The notes beneath the pieces were generated by a model. It was not told the DNA's origin. It saw only the letters and a list, made by a program, of their open reading frames with translations, and did not search any database. A program made the position numbers and the translations under genes. 64,000 nt of DNA, from NCBI RefSeq assembly GCF_009914755.1, contig NC_060947.1; one strand, written 5' to 3'. This DNA is from the human T2T-CHM13v2.0 reference genome, Homo sapiens. Shown here in pieces: positions 2,895 through 39,438 of the stretch; the first letter of the stretch is position 1, and every line of letters starts with the position of its first letter.

Positions 2895-3630
2895 TTCTGT
2901 TGGGGTATCATTTACATACAGGGAAATTAATCCTTTTAGTGTATTGTTCTGAATTTTGACAAACCCATAAGCTTGTGTAACCACCACGGCAATCAAGGCA
3001 CAGCAATTCCTTCACTCCCAAAAATTTCACTCGTGCTGACTCTGTAGTTAGCTCTTCTTTCCACCTGAAGACAACCACTGACCACTTTTCTGTCTCTACA
3101 ATTTTGCCTTTTCAGGATGTCAAATAAGTGGAATATTGATTCTGGCTTTTTTCACATAGCATAATGAATTTCAGATTCATCCATGTTGTTTCATGTATCT
3201 GTAGTCTGTTCCTTTTATTGTTGAATACTATCCCATTGAATGGAAATGCCACTGTTTGTTTATTCACGCACCAATTATATGTTTGTGTAGTTTCACACCA
3301 GTCGATGTTTGGGTAGTTTCTAGTTTTTGGCAATTATAAATAAAGCCACTATAAACATTCACATACAGGTTTTTGTGCAAATATACATTTTAGTTTCTCT
3401 TGGGTTATTACCTAGGAGTAGGACTGTAGCATTGTATGACAATTTTGTGTTTAACTTTATAAGAAACCGCTATGCTCTTTTCAAACAGACCCCAGTGTTT
3501 TGGCTTCTCATCAGCAATATATGAGAGTTCCAGTTGTTTTGCATACTTGTCAACATTTAATACTGCCAGGCTTTCTGGTTTGTTTCTTTTAGTTTTAGCC
3601 ATTCTGTGTAGTGATATCTCATTGCGGTCC
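2895..3630 (-). mobile_element. Old L1 (L1MB/L1ME-type) 3' region
   Basis: 'gtgtaaccaccacggcaatcaag', 'ataaacattcacatacaggtttttgtg', 'cagcaatatatgagagttccagttg'. Confidence 0.8.
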
Positions 3631-24525: not shown

Positions 24526-26303
24526 CTATAGAACTTACTTTAAGATCAAACTTGTACTTTTCCCTGTCCTTCCAGGGGTATCTAAATCCACAGAATATGG
24601 AAAACTAAAAGGTTAAGGTCCAGGGATGCAAGTAATTTTGCTTTGTTGATGAATTAGAATTTTCCCTGAAATTCAGTGCAAACATGGTCTGGTTTGTTTG
24701 TCTACACATCTCTCAAGCATATATTCAACACAATTCAACACACCAAATGTTAACTTGGATGCCCCTTCTGGGCAAGACACTACCCTGAGCACCACCTGAA
24801 GAGTAAAGATACATAGAATATAGTCCCTGTTTTCCAGGGACATATTTGACAGAGCACGTAAGACTAGGACATAATTATAATACAAGATAAGAAAAATAGG
24901 TACATTGGGAGGGGTATAAAAAAAGGTGTGGGTCTTTAGTCTTGCTGTGCATATAATTGCCTTGTTAAAAATACAGATGTTTCAGCATCATCCCTAGACA
25001 GGTCTATTTGTTGGCTCTGAGAGAAGCTTCCAGCATCAAGCATGTACCTTCTTTATGGATGCAGATATCTGTAAGATGGCTGGTGACTTTAAGGAGGCGG
25101 GGCAGTACAAGGGAATGCACATTGGTGTGGAAGTCAACAGAAAAACGATTTATAAACTGGCTTTGGCACAGATATTTGTGTGCTGTTGATCAAACCACTT
25201 CAGCAACTTAACTAGTGACTATGGTCAAAATGGCTGATTATGATTCATGTTTGAATCTTCAAATGTCAAAAGAACAATTTAAATTCTTGAGTAGGAAAAT
25301 GAACTCAGGAATTAGTGAGATCTGAATGGAATAAAAGGGAAACCAAGTCCTGAAGTCACCAGAATTACTCAAGGGACTTAAGCCAAACCAGAAGACAATA
25401 TAGACAATCCTTTGGGGACAGATGAGTCACCTATGATACTTATCAAGTTATTAATTAATATAGGTAGATCAGCAATCCTTAAGGGAAGAGCACACTCTTT
25501 ATAGATAAATAGAACACATTTGGAATACAGGGAAGCATTCCTTGGGATACAATACATAAAGCTGAGAGTAGCTGGTAAAATTATGTACAAAGATGCTGCA
25601 TTTATTAGGTGACAAATGAGCAACTTTCTGACCACACATTGCCCATAGATAACTTCTAGCCCATTCCTTGGCAGTAATGGCTTTCACATCAATGGCTGAT
25701 TGACTTGGGCCAGTGTGATGGACACCTCTCCTGTGGCTGGGCAAAACCAGAAAAATCAATATTAAGTTTGTGGTTGACTTCAATCACATTGTAGCCTAAA
25801 AAGTACATAAGTATTTAAATTTTAACTTTTTCATCCTCATCCTTGGTTTCTTTCTTGTCCATCTATTCTAGGATATTGCAAATACTTCCTTCCTCCCTCC
25901 TTTTATTTCTCCTCTTCTCCTCCTCCTCCTCCTCCTTCAAGATTGGAGATGAAGGGGTTTGCTGTTTCTTAACTGGATATAGCAGATAAAGAACAAGAAT
26001 ATTGGCTCACTCGAAGTTGTCCTAATTTCCTTCATTTTAACATATTTCTTCACCACCACCAGAATGCCTTCTCTAATGACAAACAATTTCCTGCTACACC
26101 ATATTTCAAGACTTTAATCCTTGTGAATGGCCATGCAAATGTTAGATTTTGTAAGTCATAAGCAGTTTTCTAAGGAATTTTTAATCGAGTTTCATTGGAC
26201 ATGCAGGCTAAAATGCAATTTCTGGCTTTTATTACACACCAAAAGTCTGTCTTTCAAATAAATCATCAAAGGAAAATTGGGGTGCAATACATAGCAGATA
26301 AGA

Positions 26304-26440
26304 GGCAAGACCATCATATAAGACCATACTGGTTGTACATTGCACAACTACAGGAAAAGTCATTCATAAAGTCTTTGATGTGAATAGTGTTCCCTGGAGT
26401 TGTACAGTGTACAACCTGCTCAGCTGCTCATGACAGACAT
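26304..26440. mobile_element. MER91-like palindromic MITE (hAT-Tip100)
   Basis: Inverted arms 'ggttgtacattgcacaactacagg' / 'cctggagttgtacagtgtacaacc'. Confidence 0.7.
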
Positions 26441-26477
26441 AACAGTAAGATTTCTATATAATTATCATAGGCTATTT

Positions 26478-26860
26478 GTTCATGTAATTAAGTGTTTATT
26501 GGGTGCTGATCATATGTCAGGCTCTGTGCTAGATCCTGGTGAGCTAAAGTAATGAAGTCTCTGTCCTCATGGAGTTAATATGACATTAGGAGGGTCAAAG
26601 AATTAAGGAAGCATTCATGATGAAAGCAAGTTAGGTACTATAAGAATTATAGGGTGACATGGAGCACAGAGAAGGGAGCCTCTTTGGGAATGGGTAAGGG
26701 GAGATTCCTAAAGCAATTGACATTGTTGTGAAATATTAGAAATAAACAGGAATTAGATAAGCCAAATGAGTAATATGATTGGAATGGAGAGGGGGAAGGG
26801 GATGCTGAGGAGGGAACATTCCAGAAAGACTATTATGCATGAAAAGAACTAAATGATGTG
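26478..26860 (-). mobile_element. L2 3' fragment
   Basis: 'gtgtttattgggtgc...tatgtcaggctctgtgctag...ctgtcctcatggag', 'gagggaacattccag'. Confidence 0.75.
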
Positions 26861-28776
26861 TGATGTGCTGAGTCATCAGCTACTTCCTGATGCCAGTTTT
26901 ATTGGAGCCAAATGTGCTTGCTGTATTAGTGCTCATGGCAGAGCCAAGCCATGGATCATGCTTGGAGAAGATGTTATCTCTAGGCAGTCACATGGACAAC
27001 TGTACTTTGCACCTGCTTGGTGACACTTGTATGTAATCTTATGTTTTGCTCCAAAGTAAATGGGGTACTTTACTCCCCACTCAACTGTGGGAGCTCATTA
27101 AGAAGAGAGTATGTCTTACTTTCCGATGTCCTTTATGCTATCTTTGCATGTGGCAGGTGTCCAATAAATATTGATAGAAAATAATTAAACCATCATCTAA
27201 CAAGATAAATCAGCATAAGATAAGGAATTGGGATTCTTTTTTCCTTTTTCCAACCTTTCAATTAAGTGAAACCAACATAGACATGTAAGCTGGGAAGATT
27301 TTGAGCCTGGTTTTTCTGATTTCAATTGTGTTGTTAGTGAACACATCCTGATATTGTAATATGACAGAAAAGGACATTTAAACAAACAATGATATGTGCA
27401 GCCAAAGATCCATGATCTCATGTTTTGATTCCAATCTTATAAACACTTGAAAGTAGCTTTATAGGTATCTTGGGCTAAGACACCTCTGAGAGAGCATATA
27501 GTTCTTGTGCAGTCATTGGAAAGAAAACACAGTATCCTATTCCAATAAAAGTTTCAGACAGGGCAGTAAATCAGGCTTGCCTTCCAGAATGCAACATTAG
27601 GCCATTGGTTTGGGCATAACATTTGGTAATATCATTGAGACACTGAAGGTGATCACCATAACCCACATATATCTGCAGTTCTAAGGGCAGCTTTATGTTG
27701 AAGCCAGAACATGACGATGGCATGCAGTTTTCTGTTGTTGTTGTTGTTGTTTTACCTCATATGGTGAAGACCATAGAGACTACCAGCCAGTAACCCATTA
27801 ACAAGATTAACCTTTGCCTTGACACCAGGGGAGTGACTTTTCTCAAAGCTCATAAAATATCTTTGCATCTCCACTGATAAGTTTGCAATGACAGTGGGGA
27901 AATTTCTTAAGTTATTTCACTCAGCTTAAAAATTTTTAAGAAGTCTGATTGCAAAAATGCTCATTGACCTTTCAATTACACTACTCCTTTCTCTTATTAG
28001 TGACAATGTTGCCAGCAGCAGTGAGGATGAGTGACCTAAAAAATGTGGGCTTTCATAATTCGGCCGATATTTTCAGTTTGTATTTAGGAGATTTTACTTC
28101 CAATTTTCTCCTGGCTTTTGCACCGCTTTAATTTCTCACAAGCTCTGGTTCCAGAATAGCTATGCCAAATTTGGTCATCCATGATGACAGTGTCATAAGT
28201 CATAGAAATATTGGGCTCCAAATTTCTTTGGAGAACAAATTCAGATTTAATGCTGCCAATACCCCATATTTCTTGGGAGAAATATGTGAAAATCTTTGGT
28301 TTCACTTATAGGAATACTCAAAGAAATGAATAAACTTGCCCATTTAAGAGGTTTACATTTACTGTATAGTCTCAATACTTTAAATTCTGATGATCTTGGA
28401 TTACACTGGGCTATTTCAACACTTAATTTTTCACAGTTTCTTGAGGCTTTCAAAAAAACAAATATACTTTTCAGGTACAAATAATTGATATGTTACAACA
28501 TTGATATAAGTATCTTCATAATTGAGCATCTTTCTATATTTGCTTTGCGCATAGCTGTCCAGTGAATTTTTTGAAAAGAATGAACAGTTCTATAAATATT
28601 TCTCTATATCCATCAGCCAAAATATGTTAAGGCCAGACTGTCACCTAGATAATTTTAAAACAGCATACTTCCAATTGTAAAATGCAGTTCAAACCACTCA
28701 TCATTTTCAGTCTTTTGGCATCTCTCTGGTCCACAGGTCTATGTTCTCATAGGCCAGCCCAGCTCCTAGGAATAGT

Positions 28777-29243
28777 CAGGTTGATCACAGTATTCAGCGA
28801 CTGTGGCTACAGAAAACAGGGGCTAGAATATCCCAGTGGAATGTCTAACAACTGGAAGGAGCATGTTGACAAGCAATCCCAGGAGCAGGCAGACAAGAAA
28901 TTTCAGGAAGGTTCTTCCCTGAGCTGGTGGGGAGCAAAAAAATATAGCCCTCCACCAGTGTAGGAAAACTAGAAGGGATGAAGATGGTACAGCCCTAGGG
29001 AGGCTGAGCTGATTCTAATTTACTGAGATTCAGATTGAACTCAAGAGATGAGCCAGTACGCTACAATTTGAGGTGGCTGTCCTGGGAACAAAGAAGAACT
29101 CCAGTTATATGACCCAGGGGCAAGATCAGAGCCAAAATGGCAGCCAGGAGGGCATGAGAGGATATTCTGGGTATTAAACCAGAATTCCTTAAATCCCCCC
29201 AACAAAGATAAAGGTTGGGTCTAGAAACTAGCATGAGATTAAA
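28777..29243 (+). repeat. Left arm of 467-bp inverted repeat
   Basis: Hand alignment to the reverse complement of 29743-30209: no indels, ~26 mismatches. Confidence 0.98.
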
Positions 29244-29279
29244 GTAAAGTGACTGTGCCAGGGTGACTTCAGTGGTGGC

Positions 29280-29619
29280 TGTTTTCACACTGCTTTAAGA
29301 AACACCTGAGACTGGGTCATTTATAAAGAAAAGCAGGTTCAATTGACTCATAGTTCACGTGGCTGGGAGGCCTCAGGAAACTTACAGTCATGATGGAAGG
29401 GGAAGCAAGGCACGTTTTACATGGTGGCAGGAGAAAGAGAGAGGAAGTAGTACACCTTTAAACCATCAGATCACATGAGAACTCATTCACTATCACGAAA
29501 ACAGGATGGGGGAAACTGCCCCCATGATCCAATCACCTCCCACCAGGTCCCTCCCTCAAGACGTGGGGATTACAGTTCGAGATGAGATTTGGGTGGGGGC
29601 ATAAAGGCCAACCATATCA
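29280..29619 (-). mobile_element. THE1 (THE1C/D-like) solo MaLR LTR in the inverted-repeat spacer
   Basis: 'cctgagactgggtcatttataaagaaaag...cctcaggaaacttacagtcatg...gatgagatttgggtgggg...accatatca'; 5-bp TSD gtggc at 29275-29279 and 29620-29624. Confidence 0.92.
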
Positions 29620-29742
29620 GTGGCCCTGTTTTCCAGGCCATATGAATGTTTACCCCACGCTGCAGGGCCCTCAATAGCTCCATTTTCTCCCGCGGCTGAG
29701 CCATTGTACTTTCTAGAAAAAGTCTTTCTTCATGACTGAAGG

Positions 29743-30209
29743 TTCAATCTTGTGCCAGTTTCCAGACCCAACCTTTATCTTTGTTGGGGGGATTTAAGGA
29801 ATTCTGGTTTAATACCCAGAATATCCTCTCATGCCCTCCTGGCTGCCATTTTGGCTCTGTTCTTGCCCCTGGGTCATATAACTGGAGTTCTTCTTTGTTC
29901 CCAGGACAGCCACCTCAAATTGTAGCGTACTGGCTCATCTCTTGAGTTCAATCTGAATCTCAGTAAATCAGAATCAGCTCAGCCTCCTTAGGGCTGTACC
30001 ATCTTCATCCCTTCTAATTTTCCTACAATGGTGGAGGGCTGTATTTTCTTGCTCCCCACCAGCTCAGGGAAGAACCTTCCTGAAATCTTTTGCCTGCCCG
30101 CTACTGGGATTGCTTGCCAACATGCTCCTTCCAGTTGTTAGACACTCCACTGGGACATTCTAGCCCCTGTTTTCTGTAGCCACAGTGGCTGGATACCATG
30201 ATCTATCTG
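29743..30209 (-). repeat. Right arm of 467-bp inverted repeat
   Basis: Reverse complement of 28777-29243 (paired positions sum to 58986 throughout). Confidence 0.98.
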
Positions 30210-30667
30210 TGTATTAGTTCATATTCTCCAAGAAGCCGATACCAAGACAAGATGAAGTGTGCAAGTATTTCATTAGGGGACATGCCTACATGAAAGGAAC
30301 TAGGAGGAAAATGGAGTAGGCCAGGAGAGCATTCAGTTTGTGATGCAAATTGACTTCCAGTGAAGGAGAGAGGAGGAAAAGATGGAAGCTCCTAGACTGT
30401 CCTTCTGGCTTAGGAAGGTTTGGGAAAGCCACCAAGGGCATCTTAGCCAAAGTCACCCATCAAAAAGGTACTGTGTCTCTTAGGAAAGGACCTGCCTTAG
30501 AATCCCCTCAGCCCCAATCACATTTAGCCATTGGTAGAGAACAGCCTGTGGGAAAGGGGCCTTGGCACATACCCACTGATAGATTTCAGAGTGCACTAGA
30601 TGGAGTTTCAGTCAATTACATCCCCTGGAGTCACAGGTGTGCCAGGTGCATGCTCATGACCTTCACA
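30210..30667 (-). mobile_element. LTR16C-like ERVL solo LTR
   Basis: TG...CA termini; 'tgtattagttcatattctccaagaagccgataccaagac', 'agccaaagtcacccatca', 'cctgccttag'. Confidence 0.78.
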
Positions 30668-31997
30668 ACTTGTCAGTTTGGACTTTCTTCCAGCACCCGA
30701 AGCTGGGTCTGTACCCCAAGGTGCTAGTCTCACTCTACAAACATGCTGTTTTACCTTCAGGTCCCAGTCTCTCCTAGCCTGCTTTATCCAGCTGGAATCA
30801 ACAGACAGCCAGGTCGGGCCTTATCATGAGCAGCGTTTTCAAGTGTGAATTCCTTCCTGGCATTTCTCCAGAAATTTATATGGACTTCTAAAACCCGAAT
30901 TCCAAGAAAAATTCATTGAAACATTGAGGGAATGAGAAAAAATGTTACAATTCTCCTTGAAAAGTTAAAACTGAACAATCAACACAAAGACATAACTGGT
31001 TTGATGGAAGCCACTGACAAAAAGTCAAAAGAGCAGGAAACTCTGACATGGAGTCAAAGATCAAGGCTGGAATTTCCAGAACCATGACAGGAGTACAGAA
31101 CAGTGGTCATGAGCTAATCAGTCAGCCTTTCTTGCAGCTGTTGCCATGTTATATGTGTGTGTTTGTTGCAGATAAAGTAAATATTAATAAGTTTATATGC
31201 ATAGTATGCTTTATAGAAATCATATGATTGCTCTTCCAAAAAAAATAACAAGTTTTTTAAGCAAAATAAGTCCTTTAACTGGCAGTTTCCACATATGACT
31301 CTGGGAAGTGATGTTAATTTTATTAGGAGATCTGAATGTGAGGTTATTCGTATATTACCCAATAATATTTGTCAGCATTTTTCAGTGTTTGAATATTTGT
31401 TATAAAACATAATTCTTGGTAAAAAAAAATAGTAAACTGAAAATTCCTTTTTATTACATCATTTTAATGTCCATAATAATAAGATATGAAGAATGGTGGA
31501 AGTATTTAAAGAATAACATATGACTTAGAATAATTTGTGAAATTTCCAAGAATTCCAGTATCTCATTCCAAGTCTTGAAGACTAGAAATACTGTGAGATA
31601 AAGCTTGGGAATTCTCCAGGATTGATTAGAGAAATGATGATGACTAAAATGAGACTGCTGTTTTCGCTTTTATCCAATCAGAACTCAATCCTCTTAGCCA
31701 ATCTAAACTTTAATCTCAGTGCTGTGAGCCTAATTTAACTGCTTCTTCAGAATAAGGAAAATAATTACACCATGCAAATTTCAATTGTGAATTTTCCCAA
31801 CTTAGGAAAAGATCAATAGTTTTAAATATTTGTCCTCTATAGGGCTTGGCAACAACATGGCTAAAAATAAAAGCGATATTACAACTAAAAAGAAAAACAC
31901 ACCACTATAGCCATGCTATTGCTGCAGAAATTTTCATATACTTGACCTCTGATTAACATGTCATCTCTCTAAAGAGCTATTCTCAATTTTACTCCAG

Positions 31998-32305
31998 TGT
32001 CTTAGTCTGCACAGGCTGCCATAACAAAATACCATGGACTAAGTGGCTTAAACAACATAAGTCTATTTCTCACAGCTCTAGAGGTTGGGGAGTTCAACAT
32101 CAAGGCACTGGCCAGTAGGGTTCCTGGTGTCTCTCTGAGGTCCTTTCTTATAACATCACTAATTTCATCATGAGGGCCCTACTCTCATGGCCTCACCTAA
32201 CCCTAATTATCTCCCAAGGACGCCATCTTAAATACCATCCTGTTGGGTTGTAGGGCTTCAACATGAGAACCTGGGGTGGAGGACACAAACATTTGGTTCA
32301 TAACA
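31998..32305 (-). mobile_element. MLT1A/MSTD-like MaLR LTR
   Basis: 'tgtcttagtctg..caggctgccataacaaaatacc...ggcttaaacaaca...ggacacaaacatt...cataaca'. Confidence 0.85.
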
Positions 32306-32664
32306 TCTGACATGGCTTTCTTGAGACCAGAACCAGCTCATGAAAAGAGTCCAATCAGGTAAGCATAACTGGGCAGTTCCTACCACTTCTCCTTGGTGCT
32401 CCTTATTCCCCCAGGAACCAGTCCCTTAGGGTCCTCATGGGGGGCCTCTCTCTGGGATTTGGGGAGCAACTGAAGGGGGCAGCACATTCCCACGTACAGA
32501 GGGCAGACCATGTGCAGGGGCTTCACAAACATCATCAACTTTCACCCTTCCAGCATCCCTGCTGGGAGCACCTCTTCCATTTTCAGAAGAGAGACATTTG
32601 GGGTTGAACCAGTTTCAATAATTCATATGCCCATGTCACAGAAAAAGTAAGGACTAGAGCTAGT

Positions 32665-33250
32665 CTTTTCTTAAAGATACAATTCAGATATTAGAGAATT
32701 CACCCTTTCAAATTATACAGTTCAGCAGTTTTTAGTATATTCATAACATGCAACCATCACCCCTATCGAATTTCAGAACATTTATATCACCCCTAAAAGA
32801 AATCCCATACCCTTTAGCAGTCACTCCTCATTCTTCCCTTTCCTTGGCTCCTGGCAACCACTTATTTACCTTCTGTTTCCATGGACTTGCCTATTTTAGA
32901 CATTTCATATAAATGGAGTCATACATGTTTTTTGTTATCTGGCTTCTTTCACTTAACATAAACATTTTCAAGGGTCATCTATGTTGCAGCATGAATCCCT
33001 ACTTCATTCCTGTTTATGGCTTAATAATATTCCATTGTATGGATATACCACTTTTAATTATCCATTTATCAATTGATAAACATTTGGGTTGTTTCCACCA
33101 TTTTGGCTTTTATGAATAATGCTGTTATGAACATTCATGTACAAGTTTTTGTACTGACATATGTTTTCCTTTCCCTTGGCTATATACCTTAGGAGTTGAA
33201 TTGCTGGGTCATATGGTAACTCTGTGTTTAACTTTTTGGAGAACTTCCGA
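32665..33250 (-). mobile_element. L1MB-type 3' end inserted into a MIR (~32490-33300)
   Basis: 'catgcaaccatcacccctatcgaatttcagaacattt', 'ggagttgaattgctgggtcatatggtaactctgtgtttaacttttt'. Confidence 0.88.
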
Positions 33251-38741: not shown

Positions 38742-39438
38742 CTTTTTTTTTTCAAATTAAGGTGAAATTCACATAACACAAAAGAAACCATTTCAAAGTG
38801 AACAATTATATGGCATTTAGTACATCCACAATGTTGTCCAGCCACCCACCTCTATCTAGTTTCAAAACAATGTTATCACTCCAAGACGAGATCCTGTATC
38901 CATAAAAAGGTCACTCAACATTCTCCCCTCCACCTAACCCCTGGTAACCACTAATCTGCTTTCTGTTTCTATGGATTTTATTATTCTGGTTATTCATATA
39001 AATAGAATATGTATTTATATGAATACATATTCCTATAATAGAATATGGACCACCCAGGTCCACACTACTGTTACTCTTTTCTGGATTATCACAATGGTCC
39101 CCTGACTGGTTTCTCTGCTTCTGCCAAGGTTGGGTTATAAAACACAAAAAGACACACACACACACACACACACACACACCCCAACATCAACTCCTCAGGA
39201 CTCTGTCTTTTTGGATGTTTTCACAAACTGTTAGCCTGCTTCTGATTATAAAAGATTTCATATGTCTTTTGTGTCTGGCTTCTTTCACTTAGCACAAGCT
39301 TTTCAAGGTACATCCATGTTGTCCTATGTGTCAGTACTTCATTCCTTTATGAATGAAGACTATTCTACTGTATAGATAGACCATAACTTGTTTCATCTGT
39401 TGATAGACATCTGGGTTGTTTACTTTTGTGCTATTTTG
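38742..39438 (-). mobile_element. L1MB-type 3' end interrupted by a templated insertion
   Basis: 'aattaaggtgaaattcacataaca', 'ggcatttagtacatccacaatgttg', resumes 'tcttttgtgtctggcttctttcacttagc' after 39259. Confidence 0.88.
39046..39259 (+). repeat. Dispersed direct copy of 39872-40077
   Basis: Hand alignment: 4 substitutions plus an 8-bp longer (AC)n. Confidence 0.98.

What the first reader, a model, noticed from the sequence alone, without database searches (positions are those of the whole stretch)
28777..30209. 467-bp indel-free inverted repeat around a 499-bp spacer, with a homogenised core
Seen: 28777-29243 is the reverse complement of 29743-30209, with about 26 mismatches and no gaps. 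Identity is uneven: 29018-29222 has 1 mismatch in 205 bp, 28801-29017 has 14 in 217 bp, and the terminal ~20-25 bp at both ends are only ~75-78% identical. I do not recognise the arms as a transposon. Established: close inverted repeats undergo arm-to-arm gene conversion and mediate recurrent inversion of the spacer. Inference: this is an old palindrome kept similar by repeated conversion, and it may be a recurrent or polymorphic micro-inversion that short reads would miss.
Basis: partly seen in the sequence, partly recalled or inferred. Interest (0 to 1): 0.85.

Follow-up and report, generated by a model that had tools for sequence, protein, structure and literature searches.

The report
Small one-off inverted duplication on Xp22.2
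A 467-base stretch of non-coding DNA on the human X chromosome is present twice in opposite orientation around a 499-base spacer, and part of it looks freshly copied from one arm to the other; this is a real but fairly ordinary kind of structure.

Summary
The arms are 28777-29243 and 29743-30209: 467 bp, 26 mismatches, no gaps, 499-bp spacer.

The arms are not a known repeat. A search of the whole assembly finds only these two copies.

- About 340 bp of the spacer (29280-29619, minus strand) is a solo LTR of a high-copy family.
- The right arm ends exactly at the terminus of a much older LTR-like repeat, 30210-30668.

Divergence comes in three tiers: 25% in the terminal 21-23 bp, 6.4% in the outer body and 0.5% in a 205-bp inner core. 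Random placement of the mismatches does not explain this (P about 5e-5).

The best reading is a locus-specific inverted duplication with at least one recent arm-to-arm gene-conversion tract of typical size. "Ancient and repeatedly converted" is plausible but unproven, because error-prone synthesis at the original junctions could also explain the divergent ends.

Spacer inversion could not be tested, because no other haplotype or primate genome was available. No coding, Pfam or Rfam signal was found. Interest is modest.

The parts
28777..29243 (.). Left arm of the inverted duplication (467 bp)
   Evidence: Unique in the assembly apart from its partner.
29743..30209 (.). Right arm, the reverse complement of the left arm. 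26 mismatches, no gaps.
   Evidence: 94% identity, E 1e-207.
29018..29222 (.). Near-identical inner core of the left arm (partner 29764-29968). 1 mismatch in 205 bp, at 29126. Inferred to be a recent gene-conversion tract.
   Evidence: permutation P 5.5e-5. Fisher test of outer body (14 of 218) against core (1 of 205): P 0.0009.
28800..29017 (.). Outer body of the left arm (partner 29969-30186). 14 mismatches in 218 bp (6.4%).
28777..28799 (.). Divergent outer end of the left arm: 6 mismatches in 23 bp. The inner end, 29223-29243, has 5 in 21.
   Evidence: Fisher test of ends (11 of 44) against outer body (14 of 218): P 0.0007.
29244..29742 (.). Spacer, 499 bp. Unique sequence at 29244-29279 and 29620-29742, with a solo LTR in between.
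29280..29619 (-). Solo LTR of a high-copy family of about 350 bp. I recall it as MaLR, THE1/MST-like; no tool named it. It is flanked by GTGGC at 29275-29279 and at 29620-29624. Its last ~10 nt are missing or diverged.
   Evidence: 10,673 first-look candidates, 40 scored. The 39 hits other than the self-match are 81-84% identical over spacer positions 36-380; alignment with 11 copies shows shared termini and 5-bp target-site duplications in several copies; about 0.086 substitutions per site on the window copy's own branch.
30210..30668 (.). Old LTR-like interspersed repeat with TG...CA ends that abuts the outer end of the right arm. It is not part of the duplication but marks its boundary.
   Evidence: Blast alignments to 5 other copies are 61-72% identical, and two of them (L015, L019) start exactly at 30210; the others start at 30200, 30226 and 30242; branch about 0.26 substitutions per site.

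Best explanation
This is a locus-specific inverted duplication (a micro-palindrome) of otherwise unique, non-coding DNA. It lies inside introns of the lncRNAs HCCS-DT and LOC124905244.

The two 467-bp arms still recombine with each other. At least one non-crossover event, a gene conversion, copied about 205 bp next to the spacer from one arm onto the other recently. It left 1 difference in 205 bp beside an outer body that is 6.4% diverged.

The terminal 21-23 bp at both ends of each arm, which a conversion tract can rarely include, are about 25% diverged.

The spacer was originally about 154 bp and now carries a 340-bp solo LTR.

Shown: the structure, its uniqueness, the three divergence tiers, the LTR in the spacer and the old LTR-like repeat at the right boundary.

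Inferred: conversion as the cause of the core, the order of events, and that a crossover between the arms would flip the LTR-bearing spacer.

I find no evidence of a function. I treat it as a neutral structural feature.
For: - Structure.
- Uniqueness: 2 of 2 genome matches are the arms themselves. The same tool does detect 65-72% identical old repeats in the right flank, so a moderately old repeat family would probably have been seen.
- Heterogeneity: ends 11 of 44, outer body 14 of 218, core 1 of 205. Permutation P is 5.5e-5, and both Fisher tests give P below 0.001.
- Local mutation rate does not explain the tiers: CpG counts in the arm segments are 0-1.
- Tract size and equilibrium divergence fit published estimates for human non-allelic conversion: mean tract 250 bp, 2.5e-7 per nucleotide per generation, plateau about 4.5% under continuous conversion (10.1101/135152, passages).
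- Arm GC is 45-50%, against 35-44% in the 1-kb flanks and 38.5% for the window. This is compatible with GC-biased conversion but not specific to it.
- No coding or RNA-family signal: no frame open for more than 104 aa, stop to stop; 0 Pfam hits for the 6 of 24 listed frames that were scanned; 0 Rfam hits at E up to 1 in 28000-31000.
Against: - Only one genome was examined. Conversion is inferred from a pattern, not from a tree of arms across species.
- The core could instead be a strongly constrained element present in both arms. That cannot be excluded without orthologues.
- The divergent ends rest on 11 mismatches, and other causes are possible.
- The GC excess of the arms may simply reflect the composition of the sequence that was duplicated.
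- Among the 14 outer-body mismatches, 9 have the weak base (A or T) in the left arm and the strong base (G or C) in the right arm, and 5 the reverse. This is my own count from the list and it shows no clear bias.
- The coincidence of the right-arm boundary with an LTR terminus is unexplained.
Confidence: 0.7

Rival explanations
1. A middle-aged duplication rather than an ancient one. The inverted duplication formed by a replicative template switch (FoSTeS/MMBIR type) at about the time implied by the 6.4% outer-body divergence, after the LTR was already in what became the spacer. The highly divergent 21-23 bp at the arm ends are errors made by low-fidelity synthesis next to the junctions. Only one later conversion, the core, is then needed.
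For: - BIR/MMBIR is described as error-prone, with point mutations arising alongside the rearrangement (PMC4352052, passages; it cites Carvalho et al. 2013, which I did not read).
- Three of the 13 mismatched sites in the ends of the 473-nt arm form adjacent pairs: 28775/6, 28788/9 and 29234/5. The first pair lies outside the 467-bp arm.
- Outer-body divergence per arm (0.034) is less than the spacer LTR's own branch (0.086).
Against: - Divergence is raised at all four arm ends over 20 bp or more. This is also what is expected if conversion tracts rarely reach the ends of the homology.
- No microhomology or inserted bases were identified at the junctions.
- This rival still needs a conversion to explain the core.
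Confidence: 0.3
2. Constraint rather than conversion. The 205-bp core is a functional element, for example a regulatory site or part of a structured RNA, and purifying selection keeps it nearly unchanged in both arms.
For: - Either transcript strand is predicted to fold into a stem of about 467 bp (minimum free energy -1014 and -1041 kcal/mol).
- The region lies in introns of two lncRNAs (annotation supplied with the finding).
Against: - No Rfam family, no open frame longer than 104 aa and no Pfam hit in the 6 frames scanned.
- It would require near-total constraint over 205 bp in two copies, with a sharp step to neutral-looking divergence.
- Transitions that would keep a G-U pair are not significantly enriched on either strand: 14 against 7, P 0.19.
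Confidence: 0.08
3. A mobile element: either a DNA transposon with very long terminal inverted repeats, or two independent insertions of one repeat in opposite orientation.
For: The arm termini read CAG...CTG. I recall this as common at the ends of human DNA transposons; no tool confirmed it.
Against: - There is no third copy anywhere in the assembly.
- There is no target-site duplication. The 8-bp flanks differ, and no TA dinucleotide abuts the ends (read).
- The left 1-kb flank is unique.
Confidence: 0.04

Closest known systems
Inverted-repeat (NAHR)-mediated polymorphic inversions in humans (InvFEST HsInv series; Giner-Delgado et al. 2019, PMC6748972; Moreira-Pinhal et al. 2026, PMC13629690)
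   Same: Two inverted repeats more than 90% identical flank a short unique segment. [quoted passage not shown]
   Different: - The validated NAHR inversions of 2019 have inverted repeats of 654 bp to 24.2 kb. These arms are 467 bp at 94%, and their longest perfect run is 108 bp.
- The 2026 catalogue accepts repeats down to 140 bp and inversions from 197 bp, so a locus of this size is within its scope.
- Neither orientation polymorphism nor recurrence is shown here.
- I did not find the locus among six of the seven chrX inversions of the 2019 set. I also did not find it by coordinate prefix in the 2026 supplement, but the coordinate format there was not verified.
Large sex-chromosome palindromes maintained by arm-to-arm gene conversion (Jackson et al. 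2021, PMC8327919; Hallast et al. 2013, PMC3723533, abstract only)
   Same: Inverted arms around a spacer on the X chromosome, with a signature of arm-to-arm conversion.
   Different: The 26 X palindromes were defined by arms of 8 kb or more and 99% or higher identity, and most carry testis-expressed genes. This structure has 467-bp arms at 94%, no gene, and is about 20 times shorter than the threshold.
Non-allelic gene conversion between small duplicates (Harpak et al. 2017, bioRxiv 10.1101/135152)
   Same: The tract size (205 bp against a mean of 250 bp), and an overall divergence (5.6%) close to the predicted plateau of about 4.5%.
   Different: Those estimates come from gene duplicates, mostly in direct or dispersed arrangement, compared across species. 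Here there is one non-coding inverted pair in one genome.

Membership tests
IR-mediated (NAHR) inversion locus | Inverted repeats more than 90% identical flank the segment | tested here: met
   94% over 467-473 nt.
IR-mediated (NAHR) inversion locus | Both spacer orientations observed among haplotypes or species, with breakpoints inside the repeats | not testable with these tools
   Only one human assembly is held and it has no relatives (header). Catalogue look-ups found nothing.
Sex-chromosome palindrome (criteria of Jackson et al. 2021) | Arms of 8 kb or more and arm-to-arm identity of 99% or more | tested here: not met
   467 bp at 94.4%. Criteria from PMC8327919.
Concerted evolution by gene conversion | Block-like, non-random distribution of differences between paralogues | tested here: met
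   Permutation P 5.5e-5. Fisher tests P 0.0009 and 0.0007.
Concerted evolution by gene conversion | Arms cluster within species rather than by side in a cross-species tree | not testable with these tools
   No primate genomes could be reached.
Concerted evolution by gene conversion | GC-biased outcome | tested here: inconclusive
   Arm GC is 45-50% against 35-44% in the flanks. The direction of change cannot be told without an outgroup.
Interspersed repeat or long-TIR DNA transposon (for the arms) | Further copies elsewhere in the genome | tested here: not met
   2 of 2 matches are the arms themselves. Very old families, below roughly 65% identity, could escape this search.
Interspersed repeat or long-TIR DNA transposon (for the arms) | Target-site duplication flanking the element | tested here: not met
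   The flanks at 28769-28776 and 30210-30217 do not match (read).
Solo LTR of an LTR retroelement (spacer element 29280-29619) | High copy number with shared, defined termini | tested here: met
   10,673 candidates. The 39 scored hits other than the self-match are 81-84% identical. The 5' terminus is shared with 11 aligned copies.
Solo LTR of an LTR retroelement (spacer element 29280-29619) | 5-bp target-site duplication directly next to intact TG...CA ends | tested here: inconclusive
   GTGGC lies on both sides, but the last ~10 nt of the LTR, including the terminal CA seen in other copies, are absent. The family name (MaLR, THE1/MST-like) is recalled, not returned by a tool.

The most novel reading that the evidence does not exclude
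The micro-palindrome is ancient. It predates the solo LTR in its spacer and possibly the old LTR-like repeat at its right boundary, which would then have cut a once longer arm. On this reading, 467 bp of it have been held together by arm-to-arm conversion for many tens of millions of years, and the LTR-bearing spacer flips repeatedly and is still polymorphic in orientation among humans or apes. It would be one of the shortest long-lived, conversion-maintained invertible segments in a primate genome.
Probability: 0.1. Interest if true: 0.55.

Novelty: new member of a known kind. Interest (0 to 1): 0.28.

Why it matters
If conversion and inversion are confirmed, this locus would be a compact natural example of homologous interaction between very short (467 bp, 94%) inverted repeats in the human germ line. 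That is below the repeat length of the well-validated NAHR inversions. The clean 205-bp tract and the divergent ends could help calibrate conversion models.

The practical points are smaller:
- A 499-bp inversion here would be invisible to short reads.
- The arms would give mis-mapped paralogous variants.
- Intronic transcripts from either strand could form a double-stranded RNA stem of about 467 bp.

No gene, exon or annotated regulatory element is affected. The RefSeq enhancer at 26673-26967 lies 1.8 kb away.

Tried and rejected
- Longer arms interrupted by the old LTR-like repeat. I looked for residual inverted homology between the left flank and the sequence beyond 30668. The local alignment score was reached by 18 of 300 shuffles. 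No diagonal stood out clearly: the best was 0.34 identity against a mean of 0.24, SD 0.035, over 211 diagonals. In a semi-global comparison, 18 of 31 control blocks scored as high or higher. I rejected this as undetectable. It is not excluded, because 40% or more divergence would be expected.
- Arms as the internal part of the neighbouring LTR element. I saw no primer-binding-site-like or polypurine tract at the junction (my own reading). No arm-like sequence lies next to five other copies of the repeat.
- Coding or pseudogene origin. No frame is open for more than 104 aa, and Pfam gave 0 hits for the 6 of 24 listed frames that I scanned.
- Known RNA family. Rfam gave 0 hits at E up to 1.
- RNA-level selection. 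The excess of A in the left arm against G in the right arm (12 against 4, P 0.08), and of changes that keep pairing on the minus strand (14 against 7, P 0.19), are not significant.
- Published inversion catalogues. The locus was not found. However, my hg38 and hg19 coordinates were extrapolated from the MID1 offset using recalled gene coordinates. HsInv0397's position was not seen. The 2026 supplement text contained no "chrX" string, so its coordinate format is unknown. The bioRxiv supplements of Porubsky et al. are closed. These look-ups therefore do not show that the locus is absent.

Full report
**Observation**

The window contains one inverted repeat at the stated place. The repeat finder gives arms 28771-29243 and 29743-30215 (473 nt, 94% complementary) with 499 nt between them. 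A blastn comparison of 26000-33000 against the whole window finds this pair and nothing else, apart from four weak old-repeat matches.

A scan of the full 64 kb for inverted repeats of 120 nt or more within 10 kb returns this pair alone.

- 26 mismatches and no gaps over 28777-29243
- 1 in 205 for 29018-29222
- 14 in 217 for 28801-29017
- 6 in 23 at the outer end
- 5 in 21 at the inner end

The six extra bases that the tool adds at the outer end are an AATA match into the terminus of a neighbouring repeat.

**What the arms are**

A DNA search of the whole assembly (3.1 Gb, the window's own genome) with the left arm returns two matches, the arm itself and its partner. The 1-kb left flank is also unique.

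The same tool picked up 65-72% identical copies of old repeats in the right flank. It can therefore see moderately old families, although a very old one could escape.

The arms contain no frame open for more than 104 aa, stop to stop. There was no Pfam match for the 6 of 24 listed frames that I scanned, and no Rfam match in 28000-31000 at E up to 1.

No target-site duplication flanks the structure (read). I conclude that the arms are a locus-specific inverted duplication of unique non-coding DNA, not two copies of a transposon.

First, the spacer is mostly a repeat. Spacer positions 36-380 hit 10,673 first-look candidates. Of these 40 were scored; apart from the self-match, the other 39 are 81-84% identical over about 345 bp.

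Aligned with 11 of those copies, the element lies on the minus strand at 29280-29619. It shares the family's 5' terminus, and several other copies show 5-bp target-site duplications. This is the behaviour of a solo LTR. I recall the family as MaLR (THE1/MST-like), but no tool named it.

In the window copy, GTGGC lies on both sides (29275-29279 and 29620-29624). The last ~10 nt of the LTR are missing, however, so the target-site duplication is only probable. Without the LTR the spacer would be about 154 bp.

Second, an older LTR-like repeat of about 459 bp with TG...CA ends occupies 30210-30668. Two of the five blast alignments to other copies start exactly at 30210; the others start at 30200, 30226 and 30242. 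The multiple alignment places the terminus at the same point. That is the first base after the right arm.

A further old repeat lies at 30835-31490.

**Divergence tiers**

Differences between the arms fall into three classes: ends 11 of 44 (25%), outer body 14 of 218 (6.4%), and core 1 of 205 (0.5%).

When the 28 mismatches of the 473-nt arm are placed at random, a window of 205 bp or more with at most one mismatch arises in 5.5e-5 of 200,000 trials. Within 28800-29222 alone the figure is 0.008.

Fisher tests give P 0.0009 for body against core and P 0.0007 for ends against body.

CpG content is 0-1 per segment, so local mutability does not explain the steps.

The ends are nevertheless real homology (P about 2e-6 each).

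**Relative ages**

I used Jukes-Cantor distances and a star-tree subtraction on pairwise distances, without building any consensus. Two cautions apply: the LTR copies used were the best matches, so their branches are probably underestimated, and the old-repeat alignment is noisy. I give relative ages only. Absolute dates would depend on recalled rates.

| Feature | Substitutions per site per lineage |
|---|---|
| Old flank repeat (window copy) | about 0.26 |
| Arm ends | 0.15 (95% interval 0.07-0.29) |
| Spacer LTR (window copy) | about 0.086 |
| Outer body | 0.034 (0.018-0.057) |
| Core | 0.002 (0-0.014) |

**Mechanism**

The best-supported reading is that the arms exchange sequence by intrachromosomal homologous recombination. 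The 205-bp core is the footprint of a recent non-crossover event.

Its length fits the published mean tract of 250 bp. The overall 5.6% divergence is close to the ~4.5% plateau predicted for continuous non-allelic conversion (bioRxiv 10.1101/135152, passages).

Raised divergence at all four arm ends is what is expected if tracts seldom reach the edge of the homology. If so, the duplication is considerably older than 6% suggests, perhaps older than the spacer LTR.

An alternative is that the ends were mutated when the duplication formed. BIR/MMBIR-type synthesis is described as error-prone (PMC4352052, passages). In that case the duplication is of middle age and only one conversion is needed.

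I cannot separate these two readings with one genome.

Constraint on the core is a weaker rival. There is no family or coding signal, and changes that preserve pairing are not significantly enriched on either strand (14 against 7, P 0.19).

**Inversion**

A crossover between the arms would flip the spacer and with it the LTR. This would leave no trace in a single sequence, so it could not be tested here.

Validated human NAHR inversions had repeats of 654 bp to 24.2 kb (PMC6748972, passages). A 2026 catalogue includes repeats down to 140 bp and inversions from 197 bp (PMC13629690, sections 4 and 13).

I did not find this locus among six of the seven chrX inversions of the 2019 set. I also did not find it by coordinate prefix in two other supplements. 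These look-ups are weak, because my hg38 coordinates were extrapolated and the file formats were not verified.

With a longest perfect run of 108 bp, I expect a low inversion rate. I put present-day polymorphism at roughly one in ten.

**The right-hand boundary**

The end of the homology coincides with the terminus of the old repeat. One idea is that this repeat inserted into a once longer arm, after which the distal part diverged. I tested for residual inverted homology across it and found none above controls. At the expected divergence it might simply be undetectable.

Chance coincidence of a breakpoint with a repeat edge is not rare in a repeat-dense genome. That is my own rough estimate, not a computed one. 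This point remains unexplained.

**Other properties**

Either transcript strand is predicted to fold into a stem of about 467 bp: minimum free energy -1014 kcal/mol for the plus strand and -1041 for the minus strand. The locus lies in introns of two lncRNAs, according to the annotation supplied with the finding. No exon or annotated enhancer overlaps it.

**Verdict**

The conversion reading is reasonable, at least for the core.

The claims that it is old, repeatedly converted and recurrently inverting are untested.

It is a new example of a known kind, a small inverted duplication with a conversion signature, and of modest interest.

Noticed in passing
window 29280-29619 (minus strand): Solo LTR of a very high-copy family inside the spacer. 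It is flanked by GTGGC on both sides and its 3' terminal ~10 nt are missing. I recall the family as MaLR, THE1/MST-like; no tool named it.
   Followed up: yes
window 30210-30668: Old LTR-like repeat of about 459 bp with TG...CA ends. It starts at the first base after the right arm. Why an arm boundary coincides with a repeat terminus is unexplained.
   Followed up: partly
window 30835-31490: Another old interspersed repeat, 64-70% identical to copies on three other chromosomes. It was not identified.
   Followed up: no
window 28777-29243 against 29743-30209: Of the 21 transition differences, 12 have A in the left arm where the right arm (read in the same sense) has G, against 4 the other way (P 0.08). 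The right outer body is slightly richer in GC (0.50 against 0.48). This could reflect strand-asymmetric mutation in oppositely oriented arms of one transcription unit, or chance.
   Followed up: partly
window 28775-28776, 28788-28789, 29234-29235: Three pairs of adjacent mismatches, all in the divergent arm ends (the first pair lies just outside the 467-bp arm). There are none in the arm body.
   Followed up: no
window 32758-32997: Weak matches (71-80% identity) to 222-385, 3141-3199 and 38847-39321 in the same window. This is probably an old dispersed repeat.
   Followed up: no
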